64,000 nt of DNA from Naegleria gruberi (taxonomy: Eukaryota), in assembly GCA_000004985.1 (NCBI GenBank), contig GG738855.1. One strand, given 5' to 3'. Position numbers and translations under genes: made by a program. Shown here in pieces: positions 2,459 to 38,791 of this stretch. Each line of letters opens with the position of its first letter. Within the stretch, counting starts at the first letter, position 1. The notes under the pieces were generated by a model. The model did no database searches, had not been told where the DNA came from, and saw only the letters and a list, made by a program, of their open reading frames with translations.

Positions 2459-5141
2459 TTAATCCTTCTTTGAAAGGTAATAATCTAAAGATTGAACTAA
2501 ACCACCCTTTTCAGGTCTCTTCTTTCCCAATTGTTCTCTCTGTTTCACTAATTTAATTAAACCGTGATGAATTTTTTCACTTTGACCTTTAACCATATTT
2601 GCATAAAAATCAGCAGATAACCAACCACCAAAATCAGCAGTTACAGCATAGTAATATCTACACTTGATATCTGAAACTCTTTCTACCATGAATGCAGTTT
2701 TAACTTCACCTCTTACAAATTTAGAACATTCAGGAGCTTTTGGATGGTTGACTGAACGAGAAACACATAAATAACGTTGTTCATCTTCATCAAATTTACA
2801 ACAGAATGCATGAACGAATTCTCTATTCTTTTGTGGGAATTTCATTTTCAAAATTTCATGATGAATGACAGTTGCATAATTTCCAGATTTGATAAAATCA
2901 ATTTGTTTACAACTTTCTAATCTTTCTTCTCTTGATTGAATATAATCTGGATCAATCCACATATTGAAAAGTGAATGAGAACTGCACTCCATTTCACCAA
3001 CATATTTGATTTGAGTGTGACGACGTGAATTACTCAAGTGATTGTGAAGTTCTGGTGGTGAACTGTAGGTACGTCCAGTATCTGAATCATGAATAACTCT
3101 CCACTGATTCATATCTTTGAGATTTTCAATAATCTTTTTAAATTCCTTATCAGTATAGACATAATTTTCCAAATTGATAAGTTCAGTACCACATTTTGGA
3201 CAGAATTTAACATGTTCCTTAACATCACAATCATCTTCAAGTTCAATAATTTCATCACTATCACTTGATCTATCCTTATCACTTGAAGTTGATCCTGTAT
3301 TATTTGTACTACCACCAGTTGTTGTTGAATGATGAGTTCCTCTTGTTGAACCACCTTGATCTGAAGTGTCATCTGATGACTTGTCAGAAGTTAATTCAGA
3401 TTTAATAAATCTGACAAGGAATGTTGGATCAGTTTGCTTCTTTCTTTCAAGATATTTTGTAAAAAGTTTACTATGAATAAACTTTGGAAATGAATCAACT
3501 TTAAGTGAACGAATGGCCAAAGTTTCCAAATTCAAGAATAAATCCTTTGGACAATGATCAGCTGAACATTCATTGAATTTAACACGGAATGGACCGAATG
3601 CATTCTTTAGGAATTTGAGTTTGTGTTGAGAATCTTCTGAAATGAAATGTTCAACAATTTGTTCAGCCTGATGATATCTTTCAGAGTGTGAATTTATCAT
3701 TTTAAATTCTTGAACTGTTTCATAGAATAACATCATATCTTGATTATTATTTAAACTAAGGAAATCTTTCATCTTGGAAACAAAGGTATGATCAGTGATG
3801 AGTTTGTGGAATCTGTAATTTTCTGGATTGGTCAAATCAATTTGTAATAGAGTTTTGGAAATGTCATCTTCTTGTTTCAATTCATGTTTGAATTGTTGAA
3901 GGAGGAATTGAATAGTTTCGTCCTTATTATTTACCTTGGTACATGCTTTAGAATTATTGTACAAGATACGAGCACATTTGTAAGCAGATGATTTTAAAGC
4001 AATGTGCATTGGAGTATCACCATCATTATTTTGAATTAAACAATCACTTGGTTTCAATTGATTCAATGAGAAACAAATTTCAGGATAATTATTAATAACT
4101 GACAAGTGAAGTGGAGTGTTTCCATTTTGATCTCTTTCACAAGTCATTTCACTAATATTCTGTTCAGATAAATGTGTTAATAATTCACCCAATGAATGAA
4201 TATATCCCATTGATGCACATTTGTGAAGAATATTTTGTTTTTCTGGATTCTTAAATCTCACCAAAGTATTCACATATTCAACAGCATCGAAACTAGCTCT
4301 CTTATTAGCACTACTGCTATTAATGAGTGTTCTCTTTGGTTCCTTTCCACTTGGACTCAATGATTTCAATACTTGATTAATCATTCTTGGATATTGAAGT
4401 GCTAAGAAGAATGGAATTTCACCCCTTGTATTTGTTTTTAACAAATCGGCACCACATTGAGTAACGAGAAAGACAACACTTGCAATATTACCACTCTTAA
4501 CAGCCTCATGAATTGCTGTATTATTGTCCTTATCAATAATTTGATTAATATTGGCATTTCCTTCGGCATATAATAGGTAGGCAGCTGGAAGATTATTATT
4601 CTTCAGGGCAATGTAGAATGGTGAATAACCACAACTATTCACAATATTGGCATTGGCTTGATTGGATAACAAATATTCTAAAATCTATTTGTGTATATTG
4701 TATTAGATAAGAGAAACGAATAAATCATATGAGGAATCATCATTGAAAATCATTGAATTATTCATCAATGTGTATATGTAATGAAGAGTAAACATTTCTT
4801 TTATCATGATAATAAAAACAACAACTTACAGTTTCAGATTTGTGATAATTCTTCATCTCTACACAATAAAAAACACAAGATTGTTGATTCTTGTCCAAAT
4901 AATTTAAACTAGCATTGAATTGTTTGTGTAGTAATCTAATCATTTGAATGTTTCCTTCCTCAGTTGCAGTCATTAAAAGTGTTTTACCATTGTTATCTAA
5001 TGCATACAATTCATCAACATTAAAGTTTTCTGTTATTTTGGATTTGTCTCTTTGAATTTCATCACTTAGTGTTTCTAAATGTTGTTCCTTGATGAGTTTA
5101 TGAAGTACTTGACGTCTTTCAACAGAGATTGTTGTTGACAT
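2459..5141 (-). CDS. Ankyrin-repeat + RGS domain + C-terminal START-like lipid-binding domain protein. Two exons: 4830..5141 and 2459..4684; intron 4685..4829, GTAAGT...ATAG
   Basis: Exon 1 (ORF 4758..5141, ATG at 5141) carries an ankyrin motif and ends at a GTAAGT donor. Splicing to the ATAG acceptor joins in frame as ...KNYHKSET|ILEYLLSNQANANIV.... Ankyrin repeats: TAIHEAVKSGNIASVVFLV, TPLHLSV, TPMHIAL. RGS-like segment: FYETVQEFK...QIVEHFISEDS. Zn-ribbon CPKCGTEL. C-terminal block ...VRGEVKTAFMVERV...ADFGGWLSADF resembles a START/Bet v1 fold. Confidence 0.7.
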
Positions 5142-9371: not shown

Positions 9372-10382
9372 AATGATGACGCGGAGCTGATGATGATCAA
9401 ATAATGTTGAAAATTAAAATTTCTCTGATGATAAAATGTGATGTTTTCAAGTTTTTAGTCGAAGCGATGACGGCACAATTTAAAAGCAGCGTTGTCAAAA
9501 TATTGGTGCTTTCTATTTTTTACGCTCTGATGGTCAATAGAGTAGTATTTGTATCACACAGAGAACAAGAGCTTCTTGGCGCGATAATTTTAAAAAATAA
9601 ATGTAACCGCTTTTTTGATGCGTTCTTGGCTGGCAAGCTGGATAATAGTTTGTTGCTGTTGTGGTTGAACAATGAACCACAAATTTTTTTTTGATAGAGG
9701 ATACCAACAAGGTTTGTGCTTGCAAAACATCTTGCTGCACACATCATCAAGCTAAAAATATTGATGGAGAGCGCATTAATTAAATGGCAATGTGATGATG
9801 GAGGGAAATTATCATCATGAGGGTGAATAATATCTGAAGAATAAGTTGGCACTACAACAAAAATTATGGTTTTATTTTGTTTTTAACCTCTTAGATTTTT
9901 GGCTTATTGGTTGTTAGAGTGCTACTTTAGGCAGAGTGAAATCTTACTCATACAACTTGGGTTCTTTCGGGTGCGTATTGATGAAACTATTTGTTCAATA
10001 TTAATACAATAACTTACACTGCATCTCCTAACATCAACAATTATGAAAAGAAATAAAAACTCTCTAGAATAAAACACGTAATTCAATTAAAAAAATAAAT
10101 TAGTTATTATTATGAATTCAAAATTTGGAAGAAATTAATATTTAATCAAAAATAATTCCAAAGCCAATAATATGTAATAAATGTGTTATTGCAGGCAATT
10201 TTTTTTGGATACTGTATTTACTGTATTTTAAATCTCCCACACGAGATTTTTCACGATGAAATTTAGTAATGCTATTGAATCTACGTCCTATACATATACC
10301 TTGAAGTTCATTAAGGAAAGAGCCTTAATTTGCACGTAATCACAAAGGGACTTGTTGAAAAAAAAAGCTTCTCTGTGACAAT

Positions 10383-13300
10383 ATGCTTCAGCACATGGTA
10401 AAATATTTAATTTTTCTTTCACTACTATTCATCAGTGTTGAGTATGTAATGAGTTTCAACTCCTATCAAAAGGAAACCCTTGTGAAGAATACTGACACTA
10501 CTCTTGAGGTACCTGCTGATATTGCTAAAATTGAACCCTCTAGTTTGTGTGTGATGGACAATGGTGATATTATATTTGTTGAAAAGACAATATTAAAAAG
10601 GTTCAAATCCAGCAGCAAAACTGTGGAATTGTTTCTCGGTAAGGGAAGTAGAACTGATGATGGTGTTGATTCTAAAAGTGTTGATTCAACGAGTGCTTCA
10701 ATGAATAATGTTGTGAGTGTTTTTAAATCACCTGCAACTGGTGATTGTGTCTACATGGATCAAAAACGTGTGAGGATGATATCAAAAACCACAAATTTGG
10801 TAACTACAATTGCTGGTTCACTCACAAGCACCAATACGTCAGACGGTCAGTTTGCCACTAGTGCTAAATTCTTTCCCAAAGCCTTTACTATTGATGAGTA
10901 TGGAAATTTGTATGTGGTAGATTTTAATGTTAGAATTAGGAAAGTTTCTAACACTACCAAAATGGTTTCAGCTTTTTCTGGAGCCACTGGAACAAGTGCT
11001 TCAACACTCCCAATAGATGGCTCACCTGCAAATACTAATCTAGGAAGCATTAGCAGCCTACTTGCAAAAAATGATATTGTTTACTTTACTGTGAGTAATG
11101 CCATTCTTAAAGTTGTTAATGGTGCCTATTATACAGTTGCTGGAAGTTGGATAGCATGTACACCTAATGCTACATTTGAGGGCGATGCTAAATCTGCTTG
11201 TTTTGACCAGCCAAAACTAGTAACAATTTCAGATGGTGAAATTCTCCTCACTGATAACTCTCTTACCATTAGGAAGATTGACAGGAATGGAGTTATTAAA
11301 ATAGTTGCTGGAACAGGAAGTGATATAATTGACATTTCTAGACAAGATCAAATGTTTCAAAATGTGACGTTTTTATTGGCGGGAATTTCAGTCGAAAAGA
11401 AAAATAATGAACTTGAATATTATCTCTCAATTGGAGGTGCCATCTTTAAAGCATTTGAAAAGTCAACCATTTCTGCCATTGTTAAAAAGAGTCTCAATTT
11501 ATCATACTCTTCTTATGATTATGGATTACAGTTTAAATCAGCCAAAAAGATTGCACAAGTATTTAGAAATGGTGATATTTTGATTATTGATCCTGATAAT
11601 CAAACTCTTTACAGATTTTCCAGACAGACAGGTATATTATCCCTTTTCACAAAACTGGACATTACAGTGACTATGTTATTTGTGGAAGATCTCAACTATT
11701 CATTCCTTTACATGGCCAGCACTATTACAAGTTGGAAAATTTACAAGTTTTACCTCAAAACAAAAAGTTTAGAACTTATTGCAGGAAATGACACTGGAAT
11801 ATTTTATAAATTTGATGGTCAAAAAGCTCTTGAAACCAGAATATATGGCATTGATGACATTAAAATTCATAATCATTTACTTTATTACAGAGATATGAGT
11901 TTGAATAGAATTATGGAATTGAATCCAAATACTGGTGAATTGAGAAGTTATTTTGGTAATGGTGAAGCTCAAGGAAAAGCTGTCGGTGGTATTAATGGAC
12001 ATTTACTTGGTTCTGAATTTATTAGAGAGAGTGCAAGTCCTGGAATAATGACTTTTGATTTGAATGGTGTTCTATATATCAGAAATACCAATATTGTGGT
12101 CTATATTGATAAGGATAAAAAATTAAGAAGATTTATAGGAAAGAATGGAGTGAGTGGACTAAACCTTTATTACCCTGTTCCAATTGAAGATGTTTTGATA
12201 GGTGGATCATCAACCATAAGGTTTCATCCAACTAGTGGAAATTGCTACCTTAATATTTACAACAGCACTTTTTCCAGCATATACCAAGTTTCAAACGGAA
12301 TGCTAACTGAAGAAATTAGAGTACCTGTCTCAACTTCTGTTGATTTTGCACTCACATCGAATGGAAGTATTTACTACTTACATGATGGTCTCAAAGTAAG
12401 ACACAAGGGAGCAGGAACCTCAGAAGTATTAATTAGTTTGGGTACCTATAATAGAATATGTCTTTCTGGTAATGATACATTAATTTTAAGTACAGTCAAT
12501 TCTCTTATATACAAGTATAATATCAATACTCGTGTACAAACATCACTTTCACTGTACACTTGGAAATATATCAGAACAATTCATTGTTCTATGAATAGTT
12601 CTGATGTTTATGTGAGTGATTTCCCAGTGACCAATCCAGTCACTTATTCCATTACAAAAATTACAAATTCATACACCTCAGTGGTTTCAGTGATTAAATC
12701 ACCATATCTTCCGTATGATATTGATTCGGTAGCATCAAGTCCAAGTGGAGAGCTGTATCTGCTTGCTACCAATGCAGTTCTTTATCAATTAGATTCCAAT
12801 ACAACATTGGAACCCATTGGTGGTTTAAAGATTAACACAACTTACTCGCTTCAACCAATGAGTAGATATGCTTTATGGTCGATTGCTCCAAATGGAGATG
12901 TCTATTTCAGAGAATATGAAGATGATAATCCTTTGAGAATAGCTTCTCCAAGTGCAAATATTGCTACAATCATTCCAGGAAATGGAACGCTTTACAATCC
13001 AACAACTTTGAATGGTTATAACAATGTTTTTGGAGAAGAATTTACCAAAGATGGATATCTTTTCATCATGTCCATGTTTAATGGTGAAAAAATACCTGAT
13101 GGAAAAACATTAACCTATTCTCCATTTACAGGTCTATATTTCTATTCTGATTTTGACTATAAATTTGGCCAGACAACCAAAACAAGAGATGGAGATTATC
13201 TATATTTAACCACATCATATGGAATTGAAAGATTATCTGTAGATTGTGTGAGAGATAGATATGGATTTTGCTACCAAGAAGATCCATTTTGTTTTGGAAT

Positions 13301-16300
13301 TCATTACAATAACGTTTCAGCTTGTGGTGGTCAAGGAGTTTGTTTCGATTACAATTCATGTGAATGTGAAGAGGGATATTTTGGACAAGATTGTTCACTC
13401 AGATTATGTTTTGGAACACTGAGTAATGAATCAGAATTGGTTTGTAGTGGAAATGGTAAATGTAATGATACTGACACATGTCAATGCAATGATGGCTATT
13501 TCTCTACTCAATGTGAAATTACTACTTGTTTTGGAATACTATCAAATGATACAAGTGTTTGCTCATCACATGGAAATTGTTCGTCTTGGAATAATTGTTC
13601 CTGTTTAGAAGGCTATTATGGAATTTATTGTAATGAAAGCAAGAGTTTCGGTAATGAAAATAATACCATTTCTAATAACACTTTTCAATCAAACGAAACC
13701 CATATTGAGAATACTACGATATCCTCAAATAGTACACTCAACTCTACCATTTCAAATTCAACTTTTGAAATAACCAATAGCTCACAAATTGAAAACTCAA
13801 CGTTACAATCAAATAATTCAAATTCAAATAACGTTTCTGTTATTAATAATACAACTGAACAAGGTACAAACAATAGTTTAATTTCGAATGAAACTCTTAA
13901 TAATAGCACAGATATAAGCAATCATTCAATGGTCAATGATACTCTAGTTTCTAATAGTACATACCATGGAACTAACTTTACACAAATGAATAATGATTCG
14001 ACTGTGAGAAATGACACAAATATCAACCTTCATTCAAATAGCACAAATAACTCAAGTATTTCAAATAATACAGTTTCTAATTCCAATACTACTGAAGGAC
14101 GAAACTATACTCAATTTAATGATACAATGAGAAATGAAACCATCTCTTCAAATATAACTACTAAAGAGACACTAAATGAAACAAGATTCGACAATATGGT
14201 GAATAATTCTATAGTGAACAGCACATTGAATTCTAATAACTCTCAAATATTGAATGATTCAACAGTTTCTAATAACACATCGATGTTCGAATGTTTTGGT
14301 AAAATGTTCAATAATTCTTTGGTGTGTAATGGGCATGGTTCTTGCATTTCACAGAATTTATGCAAATGTCATGATTTATATTTTGGTGTGGAGTGTCAAA
14401 ATAAGTCTATTGATCCAATTACCTGTTATGGAATTAACCAGTCCAATGACAGTGTGTGCAATAATGGTGGCGTTTGTATATCGAATGACACTTGTCAATG
14501 CAAGACTGGTTATTATGGTACGAAATGTTCTGTATTTCTTTTAGCACAACCTAATTTTAATAATTATGGTAATACTCTTGAATTTCATTTCAAAACTTCA
14601 ATTACTATGAGTGATCATGTTGTGGATTGTAAGAAAATCATAGTTACAGTTGATAATACCATTTTTGGAGAGAATCCAACATGTTATTGGAAGAACTCAA
14701 ATTTCTTTATTGAACTCGGAGGTCAACACTCCATTAGACAAAATATTACAATTAATGTGAATGGTTTGGATGATTCTGAAAGTAGAACTCTTTATTTATC
14801 ATTGACTGTGATTCCATCTCTCAATCCTGTGAAACCTGTTGCTGTATTGTCATACAAGAAATTGATTAGTAGTTGTGAGATGATTGAAATTGATGCTTCT
14901 CAATCCTATTGTGGTGATTTGAAACCATTAAAATATATTTGGTCAATTGAATCATCTGATGATCCTAAATTGAGCTTTCAAAATATAATTTACACTAATG
15001 AGTTCAATTCTTCCATTCGTGTAGATAATGGATCATCTGGTGTTTATATCTTTGGATTGATTATTCAAAGTTCATTGAGTGGTGTATCAAGTGAAAAGGA
15101 ATTTATCACTATCACCAAGTCAACTGTTCCAAGTCCAACAATTTCAATAATTAACAGCAAATTATCGAATGTAGAATTGAATAGTGTACCAATTATTATC
15201 AAAAAGACCATTGAATTTCCATCTTGCTATTTTGGTAATAAGGAATTCACCTATGTTTGGACCAAAATCAGTGGATCTTCATTGAATTATGAAATTGACT
15301 CTAATAATGATCTTGTAATTAAAGAATTCCAAGATGGTGCGGATCAGATTTATTCATTCCAACTTCAAGCTCAATTCGACTCTCATTCAAATAGCTCAAC
15401 TTCAAGTGTCACAATATCAACAAAATCCAAAGAGCTTGAGTTGAATATTTTCACATCAAGCTTGTCAACTTCAGAGGCAACGTTACAAGTTGAATATTCA
15501 GATCCAGATAACTTACAATCAACAGAAGAATGGACATGGAAATGCCTTGATTCAAAGCAGGCTTGTCAAGATGCTTCAATTACTTCCTCTTTGGCTTTAT
15601 GTTCCAAGAAAAAATCTGAAACTTGTACCATTCAAAAGTCAACACTTTCAAAATTCGATATTTCCTTATTGATTCAAAAAGGATCAAGATTTATTGAAAA
15701 AAGTATTGAGGTAACTTTCCCATCTAGTGTGTCAAATATTCCTCCAGCGATTAGTTTAGTATCAGTTTATCCAAAGAGGTTTAAGGTTACTAAAGATGAA
15801 ATTTTGAGTTTACAACTTTCTGTAATTTTAAATGGTGATGAAAAGATAACTCTCGAAGAAAATATATCAAGAGAATGGACAATGAACGATAAATCCATTG
15901 ATGCATCCATGACAACCTTGATGAAATCTGACATTTCAAAAACTTCTTCTCTAATTTTATCACTTTCTGAACTGCTTGAGGATACTGAGTATACACTCAC
16001 ACTCAAAGCAACGGATATTATCAATGGACTAGCTTCTTTATATTCCTATTCTTTCAAAGTTGTAAAATCTCCAAAATCTTGCAAATGTTCAATAAGTCCA
16101 TCATCAGGTTACGCTTTGGAAACTTCCTTCTCATTTTCATGTCCTAATTGTCAGAATGCAGAAGGCACAATTGATTTTGTCTTTGGATTTATTGACGACA
16201 AGTCAGGTGTCAAGATTCCACTTTACAACTTGGGAGAGAAATTTGCAACTTATTTCCCATCTCCATATACAGGTGAAACTTTATCAACATTTGTTTCAAT

Positions 16301-17798
16301 TGTTGACACTGACACTGGTGCATCTGTTGAAATTAAAAAGGAAGTTTTAATTTTAACACCTGTAGCAAAGAGTGTCACAGAAACAAAAAAGAAAGTGACA
16401 TTATGGCAGAAATATGCCTCATCTGCAAGTGACAGTGCCAAATTGGTGTTCAATTCTGCAACAATCTCCAGAACTGCAGAGTTGATGTTAGCAAAATTAA
16501 ATTCGAAACGATCTGCACCATGTTCTAATCATGGAGAATACAATTCAGAAAGTGGAAAATGTGAATGTGATGAAGGGTATACTTCTTTGAATTGCTTGCT
16601 TACAGTTGAAGATTACAATGCTATATATTCATTGAGAGAAGAAATGATTGACAGAATGATTGTTGGTATTAATGAAAGAAATCCTCTCGAGCTATTGTGG
16701 GATGTACATTTAAAGATTTTCATCTTTGGATTGGAATCAATTGCTGCAAGTTCAGAAAGTATTTCTTCATTACCATTTGAGAAAATGTTTAATTTGACAG
16801 AAAAGTTAATTTTCATGGCAAATCAAAACACAAAATTAAGAACTTCTTATGGAGTGGATTATTTAATTAATAGTCTTTTGAATCATTTTATGAGATTATT
16901 AAGAAGAATAGAAAATAGTTACAGAACCAGATTGATTAATTTGTTAAAAATGACAAATAAGATTTTTATGAGAAATTATTTTGTTGGACAAGTTGATTAT
17001 TCAGTTAATTTATCAGAATTCTCGAGTGTTGCATCTCTGAATTACAGAAATCAACATTCAAACAAGATTATATCTCTGAGAAATAACACGTATTCTATTC
17101 GATTTGATGAAATAATGGGTGATGTTTCTAATAGAATAGTTTTATCTACATCAATGTTTTCTATTAGTGATTGTTTTGGAATTTCAAGTTTACTTTCTAA
17201 ACAATTTATCAAACAAGTAATTTATTCATTGAAAAATAGAGAAGAATCGTTTTCTAAACAGCTCAATTTAATGACCAATGTGATTGTAATGGATAAGAAG
17301 TATGAATCCAATCATCAATTCATTTTCAATATGCAGAATTACAATTTTACAAATTTAAATTTGGAAAAAGTCTCTCATCAAGTAGAATCGTTTGAAAATA
17401 GGGAAATTCAAACAAGGAACACTGTGAATACCACTTTAGAATGTACACCTCTTGAGAGCCTATTTGACATGTCAGTTTCCAACTGCTCAACCAGAATCTC
17501 ATATCCAAATGTCATTTGTGTTTGTCCCAACTCAGTTTCCTCAATTGTTATTCTTGAAAAGATACTCACAAACACCTTGATTCTAAATAGCGAAGATATT
17601 ATGAATCCAATACTGCCAATTTCAAACCAATATCATTTATATGGCCTATTTGGACTATTCGGACTATTGGTTGTAATATTATTGAGCTGTTTGAGTATAT
17701 GTCTTATTATAATTGTTTGCAAATTAAGGAAAAAGAAAACTAAAAAGAATGATAGTTGTTCAGCATCAGAGAAACAAATTGAATTGATAACAGTTTAA
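10383..17798 (+). CDS. Giant secreted type-I membrane adhesion-type protein, 2471 aa: signal peptide, NHL/beta-propeller-like repeats, tenascin-type EGF modules, N-glycosylation sequon array, REJ/PKD-like region, GPS-like motif, single C-terminal TM; intronless
   Basis: Hydrophobic N-terminus MVKYLIFLSLLFISV. Repeated ...YVVDFNVRIRKV / ...LLTDNSLTIRKIDRNG motifs. EGF modules CSGNGKCNDTDTCQCNDGYFSTQCE at about 13260-13620, 14290-14530 and 16500-16610. About 45 N-x-S/T sequons in about 215 aa (13640-14290). CVCPNSVSSIVILE just before the TM helix LFGLFGLLVVILLSCLSICLIIIV, then KLRKKK. Confidence 0.85.
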   Translation: MLQHMVKYLIFLSLLFISVEYVMSFNSYQKETLVKNTDTTLEVPADIAKIEPSSLCVMDNGDIIFVEKTILKRFKSSSKTVELFLGKGSRTDDGVDSKSVDSTSASMNNVVSVFKSPATGDCVYMDQKRVRMISKTTNLVTTIAGSLTSTNTSDGQFATSAKFFPKAFTIDEYGNLYVVDFNVRIRKVSNTTKMVSAFSGATGTSASTLPIDGSPANTNLGSISSLLAKNDIVYFTVSNAILKVVNGAYYTVAGSWIACTPNATFEGDAKSACFDQPKLVTISDGEILLTDNSLTIRKIDRNGVIKIVAGTGSDIIDISRQDQMFQNVTFLLAGISVEKKNNELEYYLSIGGAIFKAFEKSTISAIVKKSLNLSYSSYDYGLQFKSAKKIAQVFRNGDILIIDPDNQTLYRFSRQTGILSLFTKLDITVTMLFVEDLNYSFLYMASTITSWKIYKFYLKTKSLELIAGNDTGIFYKFDGQKALETRIYGIDDIKIHNHLLYYRDMSLNRIMELNPNTGELRSYFGNGEAQGKAVGGINGHLLGSEFIRESASPGIMTFDLNGVLYIRNTNIVVYIDKDKKLRRFIGKNGVSGLNLYYPVPIEDVLIGGSSTIRFHPTSGNCYLNIYNSTFSSIYQVSNGMLTEEIRVPVSTSVDFALTSNGSIYYLHDGLKVRHKGAGTSEVLISLGTYNRICLSGNDTLILSTVNSLIYKYNINTRVQTSLSLYTWKYIRTIHCSMNSSDVYVSDFPVTNPVTYSITKITNSYTSVVSVIKSPYLPYDIDSVASSPSGELYLLATNAVLYQLDSNTTLEPIGGLKINTTYSLQPMSRYALWSIAPNGDVYFREYEDDNPLRIASPSANIATIIPGNGTLYNPTTLNGYNNVFGEEFTKDGYLFIMSMFNGEKIPDGKTLTYSPFTGLYFYSDFDYKFGQTTKTRDGDYLYLTTSYGIERLSVDCVRDRYGFCYQEDPFCFGIHYNNVSACGGQGVCFDYNSCECEEGYFGQDCSLRLCFGTLSNESELVCSGNGKCNDTDTCQCNDGYFSTQCEITTCFGILSNDTSVCSSHGNCSSWNNCSCLEGYYGIYCNESKSFGNENNTISNNTFQSNETHIENTTISSNSTLNSTISNSTFEITNSSQIENSTLQSNNSNSNNVSVINNTTEQGTNNSLISNETLNNSTDISNHSMVNDTLVSNSTYHGTNFTQMNNDSTVRNDTNINLHSNSTNNSSISNNTVSNSNTTEGRNYTQFNDTMRNETISSNITTKETLNETRFDNMVNNSIVNSTLNSNNSQILNDSTVSNNTSMFECFGKMFNNSLVCNGHGSCISQNLCKCHDLYFGVECQNKSIDPITCYGINQSNDSVCNNGGVCISNDTCQCKTGYYGTKCSVFLLAQPNFNNYGNTLEFHFKTSITMSDHVVDCKKIIVTVDNTIFGENPTCYWKNSNFFIELGGQHSIRQNITINVNGLDDSESRTLYLSLTVIPSLNPVKPVAVLSYKKLISSCEMIEIDASQSYCGDLKPLKYIWSIESSDDPKLSFQNIIYTNEFNSSIRVDNGSSGVYIFGLIIQSSLSGVSSEKEFITITKSTVPSPTISIINSKLSNVELNSVPIIIKKTIEFPSCYFGNKEFTYVWTKISGSSLNYEIDSNNDLVIKEFQDGADQIYSFQLQAQFDSHSNSSTSSVTISTKSKELELNIFTSSLSTSEATLQVEYSDPDNLQSTEEWTWKCLDSKQACQDASITSSLALCSKKKSETCTIQKSTLSKFDISLLIQKGSRFIEKSIEVTFPSSVSNIPPAISLVSVYPKRFKVTKDEILSLQLSVILNGDEKITLEENISREWTMNDKSIDASMTTLMKSDISKTSSLILSLSELLEDTEYTLTLKATDIINGLASLYSYSFKVVKSPKSCKCSISPSSGYALETSFSFSCPNCQNAEGTIDFVFGFIDDKSGVKIPLYNLGEKFATYFPSPYTGETLSTFVSIVDTDTGASVEIKKEVLILTPVAKSVTETKKKVTLWQKYASSASDSAKLVFNSATISRTAELMLAKLNSKRSAPCSNHGEYNSESGKCECDEGYTSLNCLLTVEDYNAIYSLREEMIDRMIVGINERNPLELLWDVHLKIFIFGLESIAASSESISSLPFEKMFNLTEKLIFMANQNTKLRTSYGVDYLINSLLNHFMRLLRRIENSYRTRLINLLKMTNKIFMRNYFVGQVDYSVNLSEFSSVASLNYRNQHSNKIISLRNNTYSIRFDEIMGDVSNRIVLSTSMFSISDCFGISSLLSKQFIKQVIYSLKNREESFSKQLNLMTNVIVMDKKYESNHQFIFNMQNYNFTNLNLEKVSHQVESFENREIQTRNTVNTTLECTPLESLFDMSVSNCSTRISYPNVICVCPNSVSSIVILEKILTNTLILNSEDIMNPILPISNQYHLYGLFGLFGLLVVILLSCLSICLIIIVCKLRKKKTKKNDSCSASEKQIELITV
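13640..14290 (+). repeat. Coding low-complexity array of N-x-S/T glycosylation sequons (mucin-like stalk) inside the adhesion protein gene
   Basis: Translated: NNTISNNTFQSNETHIENTTISSNSTLNSTISNSTFEITNSSQIENSTLQSNNSNSNNVSVINNTTEQGTNNSLISNETLNNSTD... The repetition is at the peptide level; there is no exact DNA tandem unit. Confidence 0.7.
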
Positions 17799-19553: not shown

Positions 19554-22319
19554 ATGAAGAAACAAGTTTTCACAACCAATTGTTTCGCACTAATACTCAC
19601 AATATTGTGCTTAACAACTGCATCTCTTGTTAAAGGAGATGATATTAATTGGTCAACTCTAACATCCGATCAACTCTATCGATTGGATTCTCAAGTATTT
19701 AAAACCATTACTGCAGAACAACTTTCTCAAATTCCCAGCAATGCATGCTCTGGATTCAAAGCAGATCAAATTGCGAATTTAAACCCAACTGCTTGTTCAG
19801 GATTCAAGTCAAATCAATTGAATTCATTGCTAGTTAATTATCCTACAAGAATTTCAAGTGCATTTACTGCCAATTGTTTTGTTAACATTTTACCACAAAG
19901 TTTAAGTTCTGTTTCAAGTGATTTCGTAGCAAATATTAATGGATTAGTATTCAATTCAATGACTTTTGATCAAGTTCAAGCATTACCTGGAAAATCCTTT
20001 GCAAAAATTACTTCATCATTGTTACAAGCACTTAATTCTCAACCAGTTTGTTCTGCATTGACAGCCAATCAATTATCCAACTTGGATAGTAGTTATCCAA
20101 TGAATTCATGTAGTGGTTTTGTTGGTTCCTGTATTTCTTACATGAATTCAACTGCATTTAGTGGAATTGGTTTGGATTGTTTAAAGAAATTATCTGATTC
20201 TGCATTGAATTCACTTTCAGCTGATCAATTCTCTCAAATTCCATCTTCATCATTTGGAGGTTTCTCTCAAGATAATCTTCAAAAAGTATCACCTGCTGCT
20301 TGTGCTGGTTTTACATCCCTTCAAATGTCAAATCTTGTTAACTCATATCCTAGTTATGCTTGTTCTGGATTTGTGGGTGATTGTATTTCAAATATTCCAT
20401 TTTCTGCATTTACTGGTATGAAACCTGAATGTGTTAAAAGACTTGTAAAATCTGCTATGAAATCCTTTTCAAGTGATCAAGTAGCTCAAATTCCACCAAC
20501 ATCATTTTCAGGATTTTCATCAGATAATTTACAATATCTATCAACAAGTGGATGTGCTGGAATTACTGCAAATCAAATGTTTAATTTAGATAATTCATAT
20601 CCTTCCTATGCTTGTAGTGGATTTTCATCAGATTGTTTGGGTGCAATTCCTGCCAATGCCTTTACACAAATTCCATCAGCATGTGTTTCTAAATTGAGTG
20701 ATACTTCTTTCAGTAGTTTAACTCAAGATCAAATGTATCAATTCGATCCAAATTCATTTTCAGGTTTCACTTCATCTAATATTGCTGGATTATCAGATTC
20801 ATCATGTAAGGGAATTAGAGGATCACAAATTTCAAAACTTGTCAATGATTATCCAAATTATGCTTGTCAAGGTATTACTCCATCCTGCATTTCAAATATT
20901 CCAAAAGATACATTCAAGTCAATTACTGCTTCATGTATTGCAAAGTTGCTTTTCAAAACCACTCAAAAAATTTCAGCAGATCAATTGAGTAACATTGATC
21001 CAAAATCAATTTCTGGATTCACAAGTGATAATATGAATGGATTAACAGATTCATGTGCTGGTTTTTCAGCAACTCAATTACCAAATTTAGATACTACCTA
21101 TCCAAAATATGCTTGTAAGGGAATTAATTCACAATGTGTATCTGCAATTCCATCAAATTCTTATTCTGGATTTTTGGGAGCATGTATTTCACAAATTAGT
21201 GCAAATGCCATTTCAGTTATTACAAAAGATCAACTCTCACAAATATCCCAAAATGGAATTGCTGGATTAACATCAGATCAATTAGAAACATTTTTATCTG
21301 ACACTTGTTCTGGATTTTCCAGTCAACAAATTTCCAGATTATCAACTAGTTATCCTCAATATACATGCAGAGGATTCACATTCAAATGTCTCAATGGTTT
21401 GAAATTGAATGCAATTCCAAGTTTCACTTCAACTTGTTTCGCTCAAATTCCAGCCAATTCAGTTCAAGGATTTTCACCAAATGCAATTCCAATTTTCTCA
21501 CCAGAATCATTGAGTGGTTTAACAACTGATCAATTGAGAGAATTTTACAAGTTCTTTGGTTTGAATCAATTTGTTAATGTTCTCTCTCAAAAACAAGTTG
21601 CACAAGTTTCATCTTCTACTATCTGGTCATTTAAGGATGAATTGGAAAGAAACTTACTTTTTAGGAATAGAGAGGCAAGAAGTGATGAATTGGATACTTT
21701 AACTTGGTTGCAATTGAGTGTTTCAAGTGATGAATCTGTTAGAAAGGCATTATCAACATCACTTTCAACTGTACTGCCAAAAACCTTCAGTGGTTTATTG
21801 AACTATTCTCAAATATTCGAAAATGATTTTTATACGAAACTAACTGTTTCTCAATTAGATTATTTACTTTATGATACAATTTCAAGTATTACATTAGAAC
21901 AAATTGAAATTATTCCTGATGTAGTATTTGAATCTCCTCACTCATTCTTCAGATTTTTTAAATATATTAATAATAATGCTATTAAGGGAGTTACAAAACC
22001 TCAATTTACCAAATTAGTAGCCAATACTGCCAATGGACTAGATAAGTTAATGACTTGCCAACAATTTAATTCCCTAACTCAGGAACAATATAATTTCCTT
22101 AGTACATTTGATTCCTATTCAAGAATTTACAATACTTGTTACAAACCAAATCCACAATCATCGATAATTAATCCTCCGACACCAATTATTTCCACAAATC
22201 CACCAGTGCCACCAAAACCATACACTTCTAATAAGAGAAATAATTCAGCAAATGGAAATTCCTTTTCAGTGATCAAGTTTATTCTATCCATGTTATTATT
22301 GTTCCTTATTCAATATTAA
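19554..22319 (+). CDS. Secreted, probably GPI-anchored, cysteine-containing repeat protein, 921 aa, with about 7 tandem units of about 100 aa carrying the motif ACSGF; novel repeat family; intronless
   Basis: Signal peptide MKKQVFTTNCFALILTILCLTTASLVKG. Recurring units ...ACSGF(K/T)..Q...L...YP.YAC.GF...CIS.IP..AF..I...C...L....S.LS.DQ.SQIP..SF.GFS.DN.... Pro-rich spacer NPPTPIISTNPPVPPKPY and a hydrophobic C-terminus FSVIKFILSMLLLFLIQY typical of a GPI signal. Confidence 0.75.
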   Translation: MKKQVFTTNCFALILTILCLTTASLVKGDDINWSTLTSDQLYRLDSQVFKTITAEQLSQIPSNACSGFKADQIANLNPTACSGFKSNQLNSLLVNYPTRISSAFTANCFVNILPQSLSSVSSDFVANINGLVFNSMTFDQVQALPGKSFAKITSSLLQALNSQPVCSALTANQLSNLDSSYPMNSCSGFVGSCISYMNSTAFSGIGLDCLKKLSDSALNSLSADQFSQIPSSSFGGFSQDNLQKVSPAACAGFTSLQMSNLVNSYPSYACSGFVGDCISNIPFSAFTGMKPECVKRLVKSAMKSFSSDQVAQIPPTSFSGFSSDNLQYLSTSGCAGITANQMFNLDNSYPSYACSGFSSDCLGAIPANAFTQIPSACVSKLSDTSFSSLTQDQMYQFDPNSFSGFTSSNIAGLSDSSCKGIRGSQISKLVNDYPNYACQGITPSCISNIPKDTFKSITASCIAKLLFKTTQKISADQLSNIDPKSISGFTSDNMNGLTDSCAGFSATQLPNLDTTYPKYACKGINSQCVSAIPSNSYSGFLGACISQISANAISVITKDQLSQISQNGIAGLTSDQLETFLSDTCSGFSSQQISRLSTSYPQYTCRGFTFKCLNGLKLNAIPSFTSTCFAQIPANSVQGFSPNAIPIFSPESLSGLTTDQLREFYKFFGLNQFVNVLSQKQVAQVSSSTIWSFKDELERNLLFRNREARSDELDTLTWLQLSVSSDESVRKALSTSLSTVLPKTFSGLLNYSQIFENDFYTKLTVSQLDYLLYDTISSITLEQIEIIPDVVFESPHSFFRFFKYINNNAIKGVTKPQFTKLVANTANGLDKLMTCQQFNSLTQEQYNFLSTFDSYSRIYNTCYKPNPQSSIINPPTPIISTNPPVPPKPYTSNKRNNSANGNSFSVIKFILSMLLLFLIQY

Positions 22320-35752: not shown

Positions 35753-38474
35753 CTAATTGAGAGCAAAACCTCCTCCTAAATGTACCCTAGTTCCTTCTCC
35801 AGGAGTAACTTTGTAAGATGGTTCTCCGGCCATTTCCTCACCTCCTAAAGTTTGTGATTGAGATCGTTCCTTTTCCAAGTAGAAATCCTTCTTTGTTTGT
35901 AAGAATTTCTTCTTGGTATCTTTGAGTTCTCTGTTAAGTCTTTCCTTTTCATACTCTTGTTGTTTATCCTTGTATTGTAAAAAGTTAAGTTCAGAAGCAA
36001 GAGATTGAATTTGAGAATTCTTCTTTCTCAAAGTCTCTTGATAAATATTAAGCTGTTCTGCAACTTCTGGACCTGGTTGTCTTGAAAGGATAGCCTTGAG
36101 CTTTTTGTTCATTTCCTCCTTTTCTTGAACAATTAAATCCTTTTCCATAACTTCCTCAGTTTTGGCAATCAATCTCTTTTGGAGCGTTTGGGTTTTAAGA
36201 ACAAGTTCATATTGTGTAGGATCGCTTCCTTCTAACTTTCTCCATCTGTGAACGTTCATTGGATTTTGAAGTTCTTCTGAGAGAGCTTTGACCTTGTTTC
36301 TTTCTTCGAGTAATTGTTTCTTCAACTCATGATTCTCTCTTTGGAATTCCTTAATCTTGTAAATGTGCTTCTTCAAGACTTGTAATTGTCTTGTGAGATC
36401 TTTGATTTTCAGTTTGAGAATCTTGATGTCACCCAACCGTTCTCTATATTGAATAGCTCCCTTGTCTAGTGTACTGTTTTGAAGTTGAATCTTTTCATAG
36501 AGGAGTGCAATTTCGTCGTTTCTTCTAATCAACTGAGTACCTAGAACATCTCTTTCACTAACAACAGCATCATAGTCCTTTTGTTGTTTTCTTCTTTCAT
36601 TATCAGCTTGCTTAATGATTTGAGTGAGCCTATAGTTTTCAGACTCGTGAGATTTGATGATTCTTTCCTGTTCCTTTTGCTTTTCTTCCAACAATTTAAT
36701 TTCTTCCTTCATCTTTTCCTTCTTCTTCAGGATTTGTTTAGCATTGTATGTTTCATCAACGAGAGCCTTTTCTCTACTGGTAATTTCATCCTTAAGTTGA
36801 GTAATTTGTTGTTCCATAATCTTGAACTGTTTCTTCATTTCTTCTGCCTCTTCGTGAGCCGCAATAAGAGCCTTACTCTTAGTGTTTCTTTCGCTTCTCA
36901 CTGATTCATATAGAGATTGTTGAGTCTTCAATTTTTCTTGAAGTTCAATAATCTTCTTTTGAAGCTCATTCAATTCAACAGTCTTGATTCTTACTTCTTC
37001 CAGAGCTTGTCTGTATTTCAGGTCAGAATCTGAAGCCTCCGAAGCATATCTTTCTCTTTCCTTCTCCAGTGTGTAGGTAAGTTGTCTGTACTTTTCTGTT
37101 TGCTTCCTTTCAGCAACAATTTCAGCTTTCAATACCTTTGAATTTCCTTCCAGAATTTTAATGTTATCCTGTTTCTTAGTCTTTTCCTTTTTCATGAGAA
37201 CCAAACTCTTACTGAGGTAATTTCTTTCTGCTTTGATTTTTTCTCCAGCTTCCAATTGTTGATCTTTTTGATTATTTAATTCCTCTATGACCTTGTTCAA
37301 ATGGATAATTTCTTGATTGAGAGATTCTTTAGATCTTTCAATTTCTTCCTTTTCATTTTCAACAATCTTCTTCTTTTGTTGGAGAGTTTGATAGCTTTGA
37401 TGCCATTGATTCTTTTCATCAATAACTTCTTTAACTTTTGTTTCCAACAACTTCTTTTCGAAATTCAATGTTTGATCGTTAGCCTTCAACCTAGAAACTT
37501 CAGCAATTAGTCCAACTCTTTCCTTTTCATCTGTATCAATGGTAGACTTGTATTGCTCTATTCTCTTTTGGAGAGAATTAATAGTTTGTTCCATATCCTT
37601 GATAACCTTTTCCGAATCTGTCACTCTTGTTTGTTCCTTCTTAATATTCTCATCTTTCTTTAAGAGTTCTTGAGCTTTAGCTGTGAGAAGTTGTTTCGAT
37701 TCTTTAAGTTCCTTTTCTGATTTTTCCTTTTGCTTGATTGTTTGATCTAACTTGTTCTTTGTTTCGTTGAGCTGTTCATTGATACTTTCAATAACAGTTA
37801 GCAATTTCTTCTTTTCTTGATTTACATCATTGATCTGTAAGAATAGTAGGTTATTAGAATTAATACTAGTACAATTTTTTGAAACTAACCTGAATTTGCA
37901 TATTCGATAATTCATTGTTAAGGGAAATTACTTGAGCATTTTTCATTTCCTTTTCTCTGGCAAGCTCCTTTTTTACCTTTTCCAACTCTGGTGCAGAGGC
38001 ATCTTGAACTGTATTACCGGTTCCTTGATTTGCAATTTTTGTCAGCTCCGAAATTTCTTTGGTAAGTTTTTGAACAGTTTCCTTAGCTTTGGCTTCTTTT
38101 TCATGTGATGCGTTTACTAGTTTCCATGCTTTATCAATTTCCTTTTTTAAAATTGCGATGGTGTTTTGGTCTTCCTTAGATAAATTAATTGCTGTTTGTA
38201 CCTTGATGGCATTTGCTACTATTTGTTGAGTAAGTTCCTCACATCTCTTCATAAGTCTCTTCTCATTTTCGTGACATCTCAATAAATTACGATGTAATTT
38301 TTCATATTCAATCCTAAAATTTTCCAAATGATCTTTTCCAGCCAATTCCATCAAAACTTCTTGAAAATCTCTTTCAAGTGTTTCAAAGGCTGTTTTGGTC
38401 AAACTAAGGACCATCTTTTCTTGATCATTCTCCTTTCCATCTCCTTGTTGGTTGGTCGAACCATCTGATGACAT
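35753..38474 (-). CDS. Long coiled-coil protein, about 915 aa. Two exons: 37890..38474 and 35753..37834; intron 37835..37889
   Basis: Heptad-rich E/K/Q/L sequence throughout. Donor CAG|GTTAGT and acceptor CTTACAG|ATC join ...NMQIQ|INDVNQEKKK in frame. Confidence 0.75.
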
Positions 38475-38791
38475 TTTTTAAAACTATTTTAAAGTAGTTT
38501 TTGGCGCGAAAAATTACAGTTTTATCTGTTGGAGCTTCTACAACACTCAAGAAGAAGAATAACAACCAACACGAATAATACCACGATATGTAATTTTAAT
38601 AAGTCAGCCATGACATAATTTCATCATCAGCAAACATTTAATAATAATCAAGCCTCCACAAGAAACTGAATATAAAACCGTAGTGATAAAGAACAATAAC
38701 TTGAGTTACAAAGATACATGTTATGAATCAATACACCCAAAACACCAAATACTATTAATAAATTAATTGTACATTGTTAGGCGGCAAAAAA

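What the first reader, a model, noticed from the sequence alone, without database searches (positions are those of the whole stretch)
10383..17798. 2471-aa intronless adhesion-type receptor: propeller repeats, tenascin EGF modules, an N-glycan sequon array, and a REJ/GPS-like region ahead of a single TM helix
The architecture (beta-propeller-like NHL repeats, Cys-rich EGF clusters at three sites, about 45 N-x-S/T sequons packed into about 215 residues, a CVCPNS...VIL motif resembling a GPS autoproteolysis site immediately before the only TM helix, and a short basic cytoplasmic tail) resembles PKD1/REJ-like and adhesion-GPCR ectodomains. Here it ends in one TM instead of 7 or 11. The sequon array is the densest low-complexity element in the window.
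Basis: partly seen in the sequence, partly recalled or inferred. Interest (0 to 1): 0.55.

Follow-up and report, generated by a model that had tools for sequence, protein, structure and literature searches.

The report
Naegleria single-pass REJ surface glycoprotein
This is a real, uncharacterised 2471-residue surface glycoprotein gene of the amoeba Naegleria gruberi, built from propeller, EGF and REJ modules ahead of one membrane helix; it is a distant relative of the sea-urchin and polycystin REJ receptors, and its cleavage-site-like motif lacks the residues needed for self-cleavage.

Summary
The ORF at 10383..17798 (+) is real. Residues 23-2471 are identical to Naegleria gruberi "predicted protein" NAEGRDRAFT_64611; the public model drops a 22-residue signal-peptide-like start.

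Confirmed:
- NHL-type propeller repeats.
- Five full and one partial tenascin/teneurin-type EGF modules, at three sites.
- An array of 39 N-x-S/T sequons in 218 residues. This is twice what composition predicts, and the paralogue has one at the same position.
- A Pfam REJ domain (E=6.7e-21, nearly full length).
- One TM helix and a 25-residue basic tail.

Best reading: a type I adhesion or recognition receptor of the REJ kind, with a probably GAIN-derived, non-cleaving juxtamembrane domain. A single TM has precedent in sea-urchin SpREJ1, 8 and 9. Modest interest.

The parts
10383..17798 (+). Complete single-exon CDS, 2471 aa plus stop; N. gruberi NAEGRDRAFT_64611 extended by 22 aa at the N-terminus
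10383..10454 (+). Signal-peptide-like N-terminus (MLQHMVKYLIFLSLLFISVEYVMS); missing from the public model, which starts at M23 (nt 10449)
   Evidence: Hydrophobicity. Public model start. In-frame stop 27 nt upstream. The paralogue P0122 starts with a comparable hydrophobic leader. No signal-peptide predictor was available.
10500..11507 (+). NHL-type beta-propeller region, aa ~40-375
   Evidence: Pfam TEN_NHL at aa 151-311, 32 bits against a cut-off of 27.1. Blade matches at aa 52-311. Bacterial NHL/SBBP hits.
11508..13232 (+). Divergent propeller-like repeat region, aa 376-950; blade-like motifs but no Pfam hit
   Evidence: only 29% identical to the paralogue
13245..13631 (+). Cys-rich linker plus EGF1-3 (tenascin/teneurin type), aa 955-1083
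   Evidence: Pfam EGF_2, EGF_Teneurin and EGF_TEN at aa 980-1146; Cys positions
13638..14291 (+). N-glycosylation sequon array, aa 1086-1303: 39 sequons, no Cys, 25% Asn, 35% Ser+Thr
   Evidence: 0 of 20,000 shuffles reach 39. Same-position array in the paralogue: 33 in 180 aa against a shuffle mean of 17.2, sd 2.9. No DNA tandem repeat.
14292..14528 (+). EGF4-5, aa 1304-1382
14535..16394 (+). REJ module, aa 1385-2004. The Pfam REJ match is aa 1612-2004 (nt 15216-16394). Homology to the REJ region of P0100 begins near aa 1395.
   Evidence: the most conserved part between paralogues, 56-57% identity
16521..16595 (+). Partial (4-Cys) EGF6, aa 2047-2071; absent from paralogue Ng2 and from Willaertia, present in N. 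fowleri
16596..16982 (+). Helical subdomain of the juxtamembrane domain, aa ~2072-2200 (about six predicted helices); candidate GAIN subdomain A
16983..17435 (+). Beta-rich part of the juxtamembrane domain, aa ~2201-2351; candidate GAIN subdomain B, modelled at low confidence
   Evidence: pLDDT 24-52
17436..17561 (+). GPS-like motif, aa 2352-2393: C2354-x13-C2368-x10-C2379-x-C2381, then PNSVSSIVILEK. No His, Leu-Thr/Ser or Trp of the GPS consensus.
   Evidence: The four Cys are invariant in all four family members. They fall in register with the Pfam-confirmed GPS of paralogue P0075, but this is not statistically significant.
17637..17720 (+). Single transmembrane helix, aa 2419-2446; G-x-x-G (G2421, G2424) and C2436 (the alignment's third invariant TM-region residue, worked out by position) are invariant in the family
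17721..17795 (+). 25-aa cytoplasmic tail: basic stop-transfer KLRKKKTKK and a conserved C-terminal E-L-x-T-V

Best explanation
The ORF encodes a type I, heavily N-glycosylated cell-surface receptor of the amoeboflagellate Naegleria gruberi.

Order of modules:
1. Signal peptide.
2. NHL-type propellers.
3. Three EGF modules.
4. A 218-residue sequon array.
5. Two EGF modules.
6. The REJ module.
7. A partial EGF.
8. A ~330-residue helical-plus-beta juxtamembrane domain ending in a four-Cys GPS-like motif.
9. One TM helix.
10. A 25-residue basic tail.

Proposed mechanism (inferred, not shown):
- The propeller/EGF head binds an extracellular ligand on a surface, prey or another cell.
- The glycan-coated array acts as a stiff spacer that holds the head away from the membrane.
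- The REJ module gives an extensible, force-bearing stalk, as in polycystin-1.
- The juxtamembrane domain is a degenerate GAIN-type domain. It has lost the His-Leu-Thr/Ser catalytic triad and so stays uncleaved, keeping the ectodomain covalently anchored.
- Any signalling must pass through lateral TM contacts (invariant G-x-x-G) or the conserved E-L-x-T-V C-terminus, because there is no 7TM/11TM, PLAT or RGS module.

Shown: the architecture, the topology signals, the REJ/EGF/NHL identities, the sequon enrichment, family conservation, and absence of the cleavage consensus.

Inferred: the GAIN fold, glycosylation, ligand binding, and the adhesion or mechanical role.
For: - Gene reality: a 7.4-kb uninterrupted ORF in 32% GC DNA, identical to a public N. 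gruberi model. A full-length paralogue, NAEGRDRAFT_68123, has the same module order.
- REJ: Pfam E=6.7e-21, nearly full length. It is also precomputed in the Willaertia and N. fowleri homologues.
- EGF and NHL.
- Sequon array: 39 observed against a shuffle mean of 19.1, sd 3.1. The paralogue keeps the density and position while the sequence is only 34% identical with 42 gapped positions.
- Topology: N-terminal hydrophobic leader, one TM, Lys/Arg cluster after the TM.
- Juxtamembrane domain: four invariant Cys with GPS-like spacing followed by a conserved hydrophobic strand and E-K.
- MAFFT and hmmsearch place these Cys in register with the Pfam-confirmed GPS of paralogue P0075.
- Secondary structure is predicted as about six helices followed by strands, the pattern Arac et al. 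describe for GAIN (PMC3321182).
Against: - Pfam GPS gives no hit at E<=10 for any of the four family members.
- The family-only profile finds no solved structure.
- hhalign of the family against canonical GAIN without the TM scores 15.3. The block-shuffled null is 17.0, sd 2.0, and 191 of 224 shuffles reach the observed score. The earlier E=0.059 came largely from the TM helix.
- Both AF2 models have mean pLDDT of about 51 and a poorly predicted beta part.
- The family-only model found no GAIN by Foldseek.
- Both GPS Trp residues are absent.
- No expression, glycosylation, localisation or ligand data exist; no paper mentions the locus tags.
Confidence: 0.6

Rival explanations
1. The ~330-residue region between REJ and the TM is a Naegleria/Willaertia-specific domain unrelated to GAIN. 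On this reading the four-Cys pattern is a coincidental disulphide knot, and the protein is a REJ-EGF-NHL surface protein with a novel membrane-proximal domain.
For: - An exhaustive phmmer scan of 1.84 billion representatives finds only four proteins, all heterolobosean.
- There is no Pfam GPS hit and no PDB sequence hit.
- The profile-profile score is below the shuffled null.
- The family-only AF2 model gives no GAIN match.
- The Trp residues and the HL-T/S triad are absent.
Against: - The position, size and helix-then-strand order match GAIN (PMC3321182).
- The Cys spacing falls in register with the canonical GPS of paralogues.
- P0100 has the same REJ-EGF-helical-beta order and ends in a canonical-looking GPS.
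Confidence: 0.28
2. The GPS-like motif is still autoproteolytic through a shifted register. If the scissile bond lies one residue further from C-x-C, the P1' residue is Ser, Thr, Thr, Ser in the four homologues (V|S, V|T, V|T, T|S). The protein would then be a non-covalent two-fragment receptor like SpREJ3 or polycystin-1.
For: The alignment shows a conserved Ser/Thr followed by a hydrophobic strand, one position downstream of the ungapped register.
Against: - No His, or any conserved general base, sits at P2: the residues are S, D, S, Q.
- The ungapped register given by MAFFT, hmmsearch and hhalign puts Val at P1' in three of the four.
- From published knowledge, GAIN domains lacking the canonical triad, such as BAI3, are uncleaved (PMC3321182).
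Confidence: 0.07
3. The Asn/Ser/Thr-rich stretch is just AT-driven low-complexity filler with no selected function, and the sequon density is a by-product of composition.
For: The window is 25-35% GC. Asn-rich tracts are common in AT-rich protist genomes (general knowledge). The sequence of the array is poorly conserved between paralogues.
Against: - The sequon count is twice the composition-matched expectation in both paralogues, with 0 of 20,000 shuffles reaching it in each.
- Spacing is regular at about 6 residues.
- The array sits at the same place, between two EGF clusters in the extracellular part, in both paralogues.
- No DNA-level tandem repeat explains it.
Confidence: 0.12

Closest known systems
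Sea-urchin receptor for egg jelly SpREJ1 (suREJ1), and SpREJ8/9
   Same: A large, heavily glycosylated sperm-surface receptor (PMC1934368). It has a REJ module followed by a GPS-type juxtamembrane region and a single TM; an EGF module and a short cytoplasmic tail are recalled from my knowledge of Moy et al. 1996, not read here. This is the closest match in membrane-proximal architecture.
   Different: SpREJ1 carries C-type lectin domains instead of NHL propellers. It has a recognisable GPS. It has no sequon array of this kind, and it is metazoan. Sequence similarity here is limited to the Pfam REJ profile.
Polycystin-1 / PKD1 family (PKD1, PKD1L1-3, PKDREJ)
   Same: The REJ module lies directly N-terminal to a juxtamembrane domain and the first TM, within a very large modular ectodomain.
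   Different: Here there are no PLAT/LH2 domain, 11 TM helices, channel-like domain or coiled coil. The HL-T cleavage triad is absent. No PKD repeat reaches threshold (PKD_4 E=0.017).
Naegleria GPS-containing 7TM-RGS receptors (N. gruberi NAEGRDRAFT_74387 and _63528; the N. fowleri 7TM RGS class of PMC9283941)
   Same: Same organism, and the same head design: NHL propellers followed by the same 'CFGxLSNDxxVCSGNGxC' type of EGF. Weak but significant similarity, E=6.4e-15 over 42% of the query.
   Different: Those proteins have a Pfam-confirmed GPS (CSCSHT-TMF), seven TM helices and a C-terminal RGS domain, and no REJ. This protein has REJ, a degenerate GPS-like motif, one TM and no RGS.
N. gruberi paralogue NAEGRDRAFT_68123, N. 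fowleri FDP41_007388 ('PKD/REJ-like domain-containing protein') and Willaertia magna ABK040_000315
   Same: True family members: 41%, 26% and about 50% identity over the juxtamembrane region. All share the same four Cys, TM G-x-x-G and E-L-x-T-V tail.
   Different: - The paralogue lacks EGF6.
- The Willaertia locus matches only aa 1489-2468 and has two frame breaks.
- The N. fowleri-like contig has a long EGF array upstream instead of a visible propeller region, but the contig is cut at that end.
Teneurins
   Same: The best-matching Pfam models for the EGF and propeller parts are the teneurin ones: EGF_Teneurin, EGF_TEN and TEN_NHL.
   Different: Teneurins are type II proteins with a YD-repeat shell and toxin-like C-terminus, and no REJ. 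None of those features is found here. The resemblance is at the level of module types only.

Membership tests
PKD1/REJ family (as defined for SpREJ and hPKD1 proteins, PMC1934368) | REJ domain | tested here: met
   Pfam PF02010, E=6.7e-21, 74.9 bits against a cut-off of 25; aa 1612-2004 cover profile positions 5-421 of 452
PKD1/REJ family | Recognisable GPS domain upstream of the first TM | tested here: not met
   No Pfam PF01825 hit at E<=10 in any of the four family members. The same search does find GPS in paralogues P0075 and P0104.
PKD1/REJ family | PLAT/LH2 domain after TM1 | tested here: not met
   Only 25 residues follow the TM; no Pfam hit
PKD1/REJ family | 1-11 TM segments | tested here: met
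   One TM by hydropathy, as in SpREJ1, 8 and 9 (PMC1934368). No dedicated TM predictor was available.
GAIN domain (Arac et al. 2012, PMC3321182) | Subdomain A of six helices followed by subdomain B, a 13-strand beta-sandwich with two short helices | tested here: inconclusive
   - AF2 secondary structure gives about six helices followed by strands, and in the family-only model two short helices as well (seeded model), but mean pLDDT is about 51 and the beta part scores 24-52.
- The family-only model gives no GAIN hit.
GAIN domain | GPS motif with four conserved Cys and two conserved Trp | tested here: inconclusive
   Four Cys are invariant with compatible spacing, C-x13-C-x10-C-x-C. Both Trp are absent: an aliphatic residue sits at the first position and an invariant Phe near the second.
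GAIN domain | Cleavage-site consensus H-L-|-T/S (C-x-C-x-H-L-T/S-x-F) | tested here: not met
   The sequence is C-V-C-P-N-S-V-S-S-I. The His position holds N, K, S, K in the four homologues. In the ungapped register P1' is V, V, V, T.
GAIN domain | Statistically significant sequence or profile similarity to known GAIN domains | tested here: not met
   - hhalign without the TM scores 15.3 against a null of 17.0, sd 2.0.
- The PDB profile search gives no hits.
- The canonical Naegleria-type trio does hit aGPCR GAINs at E=1.5e-5.
Adhesion GPCR | Seven-transmembrane domain after the GAIN domain | tested here: not met
   One TM only; no 7tm Pfam hit
EGF-like (tenascin/teneurin type) | Six-Cys EGF module matching curated profiles | tested here: met
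   EGF_2 74.5 bits (cut-off 22.1), 6 stretches; EGF_Teneurin 57.3 bits (cut-off 24.3), 5 stretches
NHL-repeat beta-propeller | Repeated NHL blades matching curated profiles | tested here: met
   - TEN_NHL 32 bits against a cut-off of 27.1 on the first 400 aa.
- NHL PF01436 scores only 16.9 bits, below its cut-off.
- Strong HMMER matches to NHL/SBBP proteins.
- Propeller closure and blade number were not determined.
Teneurin | Type II topology, YD-repeat shell, C-terminal toxin-like domain | tested here: not met
   No such Pfam hits; the topology signals indicate type I

The most novel reading that the evidence does not exclude
Naegleria may mount the same kind of NHL-propeller/EGF head on two different membrane modules. 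One is the GPS-7TM-RGS receptors, which signal to G-alpha. The other is this REJ-plus-silent-GAIN single-pass protein. On this reading the single-pass form would be a non-signalling co-receptor, decoy or mechanical anchor for the same ligands. It would also show that a REJ-GAIN cassette, including a catalytically dead form, was already present in Discoba, and hence probably in the last eukaryotic common ancestor.
Probability: 0.12. Interest if true: 0.6.

Novelty: new member of a known kind. Interest (0 to 1): 0.3.

Why it matters
If the juxtamembrane domain is confirmed as a GAIN relative, the REJ-GAIN-TM cassette would extend to Heterolobosea. That lineage is far from the animals, ciliates, slime moulds and brown algae where the cassette has been described. 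It would also give a natural example of a GAIN domain without its catalytic triad on a single-pass protein, which bears on whether GAIN first served as a structural or mechanical module rather than a protease.

Practically, three points follow:
- The work corrects a public gene model that lacks its signal peptide.
- It defines a small receptor family that includes a protein of the pathogen N. fowleri, where surface adhesion molecules are of interest.
- It provides a very dense natural N-glycan array for study.

None of this is highly surprising. Domain-shuffled EGF/REJ surface proteins are common in protists, and automatic annotation already flags the REJ domain.

Tried and rejected
1. Pfam on the whole protein, on segments and on all four family members at E<=10: no GPS or GAIN hit.
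2. A word-indexed homologue search of the C-terminal half, and of the family alignment: only Willaertia and N. fowleri-like relatives were found.
3. An exhaustive phmmer scan of 1.84 billion representatives with aa 2072-2471: four proteins only. No deep alignment could therefore be built.
4. PDB sequence searches. The family profile gave nothing. The N-terminal 960 aa gave only sub-threshold NHLRC2 hits. The REJ region gave nothing.
5. AF2 with the family-only alignment: pLDDT 50.6, and the Foldseek matches were meaningless.
6. AF2 with an alignment seeded with three canonical GAINs. The helical part became confident, the beta part stayed poor, and the GAIN hits that followed are not independent evidence.
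7. hhalign of the family against canonical GAIN. The apparent E=0.059 turned out to be carried largely by the TM helix. Without the TM the score is below a block-shuffled null. I therefore dropped profile similarity as evidence.
8. A DNA tandem repeat as the origin of the sequon array: rejected.
9. Gene-fusion or artefact ORF: rejected, because a paralogue has the same full architecture.
10. A PDZ class I ligand reading of the C-terminus: not consistent across homologues (position -2 is I, M, Q, S), so I report it only as a conserved E-L-x-T-V motif.
11. Literature searches for Naegleria with GAIN, PKD1 or the locus tags: nothing specific.
Full report
**1. The observation**

The window is AT-rich (25-35% GC). 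It carries an uninterrupted 2471-codon ORF at 10383..17798 on the + strand. A homologue search identifies the organism. Residues 23-2471 are 100% identical, without gaps, to the Naegleria gruberi "predicted protein" XP_002679911 / NAEGRDRAFT_64611, which is 2449 aa. The neighbouring ORFs are ordinary eukaryotic nuclear genes: SNF2/bromodomain, Ank-RGS-START, CFAP58, KIF9, a DEAD-box helicase and a Ras-family GTPase.

The public model begins at Met23. The ORF extends 22 codons further upstream to an ATG that lies 27 nt after an in-frame TGA. Those extra residues, MLQHMVKYLIFLSLLFISVEYV, form the hydrophobic core of a signal-peptide-like leader. The full-length paralogue has a comparable leader in its annotated model. 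I therefore take 10383 (or Met5 at 10395) as the true start. No signal-peptide predictor was available.

- **Propeller repeats.** Pfam TEN_NHL passes its cut-off on the first 400 residues (32 bits against 27.1, aa 151-311). HMMER gives very strong repeat matches to bacterial NHL/SBBP proteins, best E=7.5e-98. A blade profile built from a paralogue finds blades between aa 52 and 311 and only scattered, weak ones up to aa ~950. The first ~330 residues are a recognisable NHL propeller. The next ~570 are propeller-like but divergent.
- **EGF modules.** Pfam EGF_2 (six stretches) and EGF_Teneurin (five) pass threshold. The Cys positions define three modules at aa 970-1083, two at 1304-1382, and a four-Cys partial module at 2047-2071.
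- **Sequon array.** Between Cys1083 and Cys1304 there are 39 N-x-S/T sequons in 218 residues. It is twice the composition-matched expectation (mean 19.1, sd 3.1; 0 of 20,000 shuffles reach 39). The modal spacing is six residues. No DNA tandem repeat underlies the array.
- **Membrane anchor.** One strongly hydrophobic segment, aa 2419-2446, is followed by KLRKKKTKK and a 25-residue tail.

**2. What it is**

The REJ interpretation is confirmed by a curated profile: Pfam PF02010, E=6.7e-21, aa 1612-2004, covering positions 5-421 of 452. A family HMM also aligns aa ~1395-1740 to the REJ region of another REJ protein, P0100. The module therefore probably starts soon after EGF5.

The family is small. 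An exhaustive phmmer scan of 1.84 billion cluster representatives with aa 2072-2471 found only four proteins:
- the protein itself;
- the N. gruberi paralogue NAEGRDRAFT_68123 (2408 aa, 41% identity over this part);
- a Willaertia magna model (about 50%);
- an N. fowleri-like protein (26%), whose cluster includes FDP41_007388, named "PKD/REJ-like domain-containing protein".

The paralogue has the same module order from leader to tail, including a sequon array at the same place (33 in 180 aa against a mean of 17.2, sd 2.9). Identity by region shows REJ as the most conserved part (56-57%). The propellers (29-40%) and the array (34%, many gaps) are the least conserved. This fits a conserved stalk carrying a diversifying head, and an array selected for sequon density rather than sequence.

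The other two loci are less complete:
- The Willaertia locus matches only aa 1489-2468 and has two frame breaks. It is either a decayed or truncated copy or an assembly problem.
- The N. fowleri-like contig has a long EGF array upstream of REJ and is cut at its end. The 746/903-aa models are therefore partial.

**3. The GPS/GAIN question**

Against:
- The consensus C-x-C-x-H-L-T/S-x-F is not met. The sequence is C-V-C-P-N-S-V-S-S-I. The four homologues have N, K, S, K at the His position. In the ungapped register they have V, V, V, T at P1'.
- Both GPS tryptophans are missing.
- Pfam GPS gives no hit at E<=10 for any of the four members. The same scan does find GPS in two NHL-bearing N. gruberi paralogues, P0075 and P0104.
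- The family profile finds no solved structure. A profile of three canonical Naegleria-type GAIN regions finds adhesion-GPCR GAIN domains at E=1.5e-5.
- A profile-profile comparison of the two sets first gave E=0.059 with the Cys in register. The Viterbi alignment showed that much of that score came from the TM helix. With the TM removed the score (15.3) is below a block-shuffled null (17.0, sd 2.0; 191 of 224 shuffles at or above it). Sequence statistics therefore give no support.

For:
- The region sits exactly where PKD1/REJ proteins place their GPS domain, between REJ and the first TM (PMC1934368).
- It is about 330 residues long.
- Both AF2 runs predict about six helices followed by a beta-rich part; the family-only run also shows two short helices. 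This is the pattern described for GAIN (PMC3321182).
- Only five Cys occur in it. Four of them are invariant in all four homologues, with spacing C-x13-C-x10-C-x-C, followed by a conserved hydrophobic strand and E-K.
- MAFFT and hmmsearch independently put these Cys in register with the Pfam-confirmed GPS of P0075.
- P0100, a REJ protein of unknown origin, shows the same REJ-EGF-helical-beta order. It ends in a canonical-looking CQCTHT-TLF before its TM helices.

The structure predictions were disappointing. The family-only alignment gave mean pLDDT 50.6 and meaningless Foldseek matches. An alignment to which I added the three canonical GAIN regions gave a confident helical part (pLDDT 78-92) but a poor beta part. 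With that model:
- Foldseek put BAI3 GAIN at rank 2 and CELSR1 GAIN at rank 9, both non-significant.

**4. How it most likely works**

Shown:
- a type I topology signal set;
- a ~2390-residue ectodomain with the module order above;
- a dense, position-conserved sequon array;
- a conserved REJ stalk;
- a juxtamembrane domain without the autoproteolysis consensus;
- a TM with invariant G-x-x-G;
- a short tail ending in E-L-x-T-V (IELITV, VELMTV, IELPQIV, EELITV...STV).

Inferred:
- The propeller/EGF head binds an external ligand.
- The glycosylated array is a stiff spacer.
- REJ provides an extensible stalk, as argued for polycystin-1 (PMC3677617, PMC1934368).
- The uncleaved GAIN-like domain keeps the ectodomain covalently tethered.
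- Output, if any, goes through TM-TM contacts or the C-terminal motif.

The same species, and N. fowleri, have many 7TM-RGS receptors with GPS motifs and EGF or lectin ectodomains (PMC9283941). P0075 and P0104 are of that class and share the NHL/EGF head type with this protein. That raises the untested possibility of shared ligands.

**5. Comparison with known families**

The closest architectural match is sea-urchin SpREJ1: a heavily glycosylated receptor with REJ, GPS and one TM (PMC1934368; its EGF module is from memory). "One TM instead of 7 or 11" is therefore precedented. The protein meets the REJ criterion of the PKD1/REJ family but not the GPS-profile or PLAT criteria. It is not an adhesion GPCR, because it has no 7TM. 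It is not a teneurin either, although the best-fitting EGF and NHL profiles are the teneurin ones.

**6. Novelty and verdict**

The gene is in public databases as an uncharacterised protein. Automatic annotation already names the N. fowleri relative as PKD/REJ-like. No paper mentions these loci.

The new points are:
- the corrected start;
- the definition of a small heterolobosean family;
- the conserved sequon array;
- the degenerate four-Cys GPS-like motif.

I class it as a new member of a known kind, of modest interest (0.3). Its REJ call is right, and its GPS call is only partly supported.

Noticed in passing
window 10383-10448: The public N. gruberi gene model (NAEGRDRAFT_64611) starts at Met23 and omits 22 upstream in-frame codons that supply the hydrophobic signal-peptide core. 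An in-frame TGA lies 27 nt before the first ATG.
   Followed up: yes
window 17637-17795: The TM helix has an invariant G-x-x-G (LYGLFGL), and the tail ends in a conserved E-L-x-T-V motif in all four family members. This could be a TM-packing and sorting or adaptor signal. It does not fit a PDZ class I ligand consistently.
   Followed up: partly
L001 9940-12796 (Willaertia magna JBEGDK010000068): The Willaertia homologue matches only aa 1489-2468 of the Naegleria protein. It has a stop just upstream of the homology, a small deletion with a frameshift near 10186, and a second frame break near 12250. It lacks EGF6. It may be a pseudogene, a truncated copy or an assembly error. The public model bridges the first break with an intron and misses the GPS-like/TM exon.
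   Followed up: partly
L002 1-4761 (Logan SRR29240419 contig, N. fowleri-like): Upstream of the REJ region there are at least nine tenascin-type EGF repeats running to the contig end, with a frame change between nt ~2191 and 2281. The 746/903-aa gene models are therefore partial, and this homologue's head may differ from the N. gruberi one.
   Followed up: partly
P0100 (Logan protein, 2217 aa, unnamed source): A LamG-EGF-REJ-EGF-GAIN protein with a canonical-looking GPS (CQCTHT-TLF), followed by several TM helices and a long acidic tail. It is a PKD1-like relative of unknown organism with the same REJ-EGF-helical-beta order as the finding.
   Followed up: partly
P0075 and P0104 (N. gruberi NAEGRDRAFT_74387, _63528; not in this window): These are NHL-propeller/EGF ectodomains joined to a Pfam-confirmed GPS, seven TM helices and a C-terminal RGS domain. 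They are N. gruberi members of the GPS-bearing 7TM-RGS class described for N. fowleri (PMC9283941). NHL propellers were not mentioned there.
   Followed up: partly
window 2459-4672 (-): An ORF combining ankyrin repeats, an RGS domain and a START lipid-binding domain, an unusual combination.
   Followed up: no
window 35753-41553: Two flagellum-associated genes sit next to each other on opposite strands: a CFAP58 coiled-coil protein and a KIF9-type kinesin. The kinesin ORF matches only the end of the motor domain, so an upstream exon is likely.
   Followed up: no
window 19554-22319 (+): A 921-aa ORF just downstream of the finding has no Pfam match above threshold.
   Followed up: no
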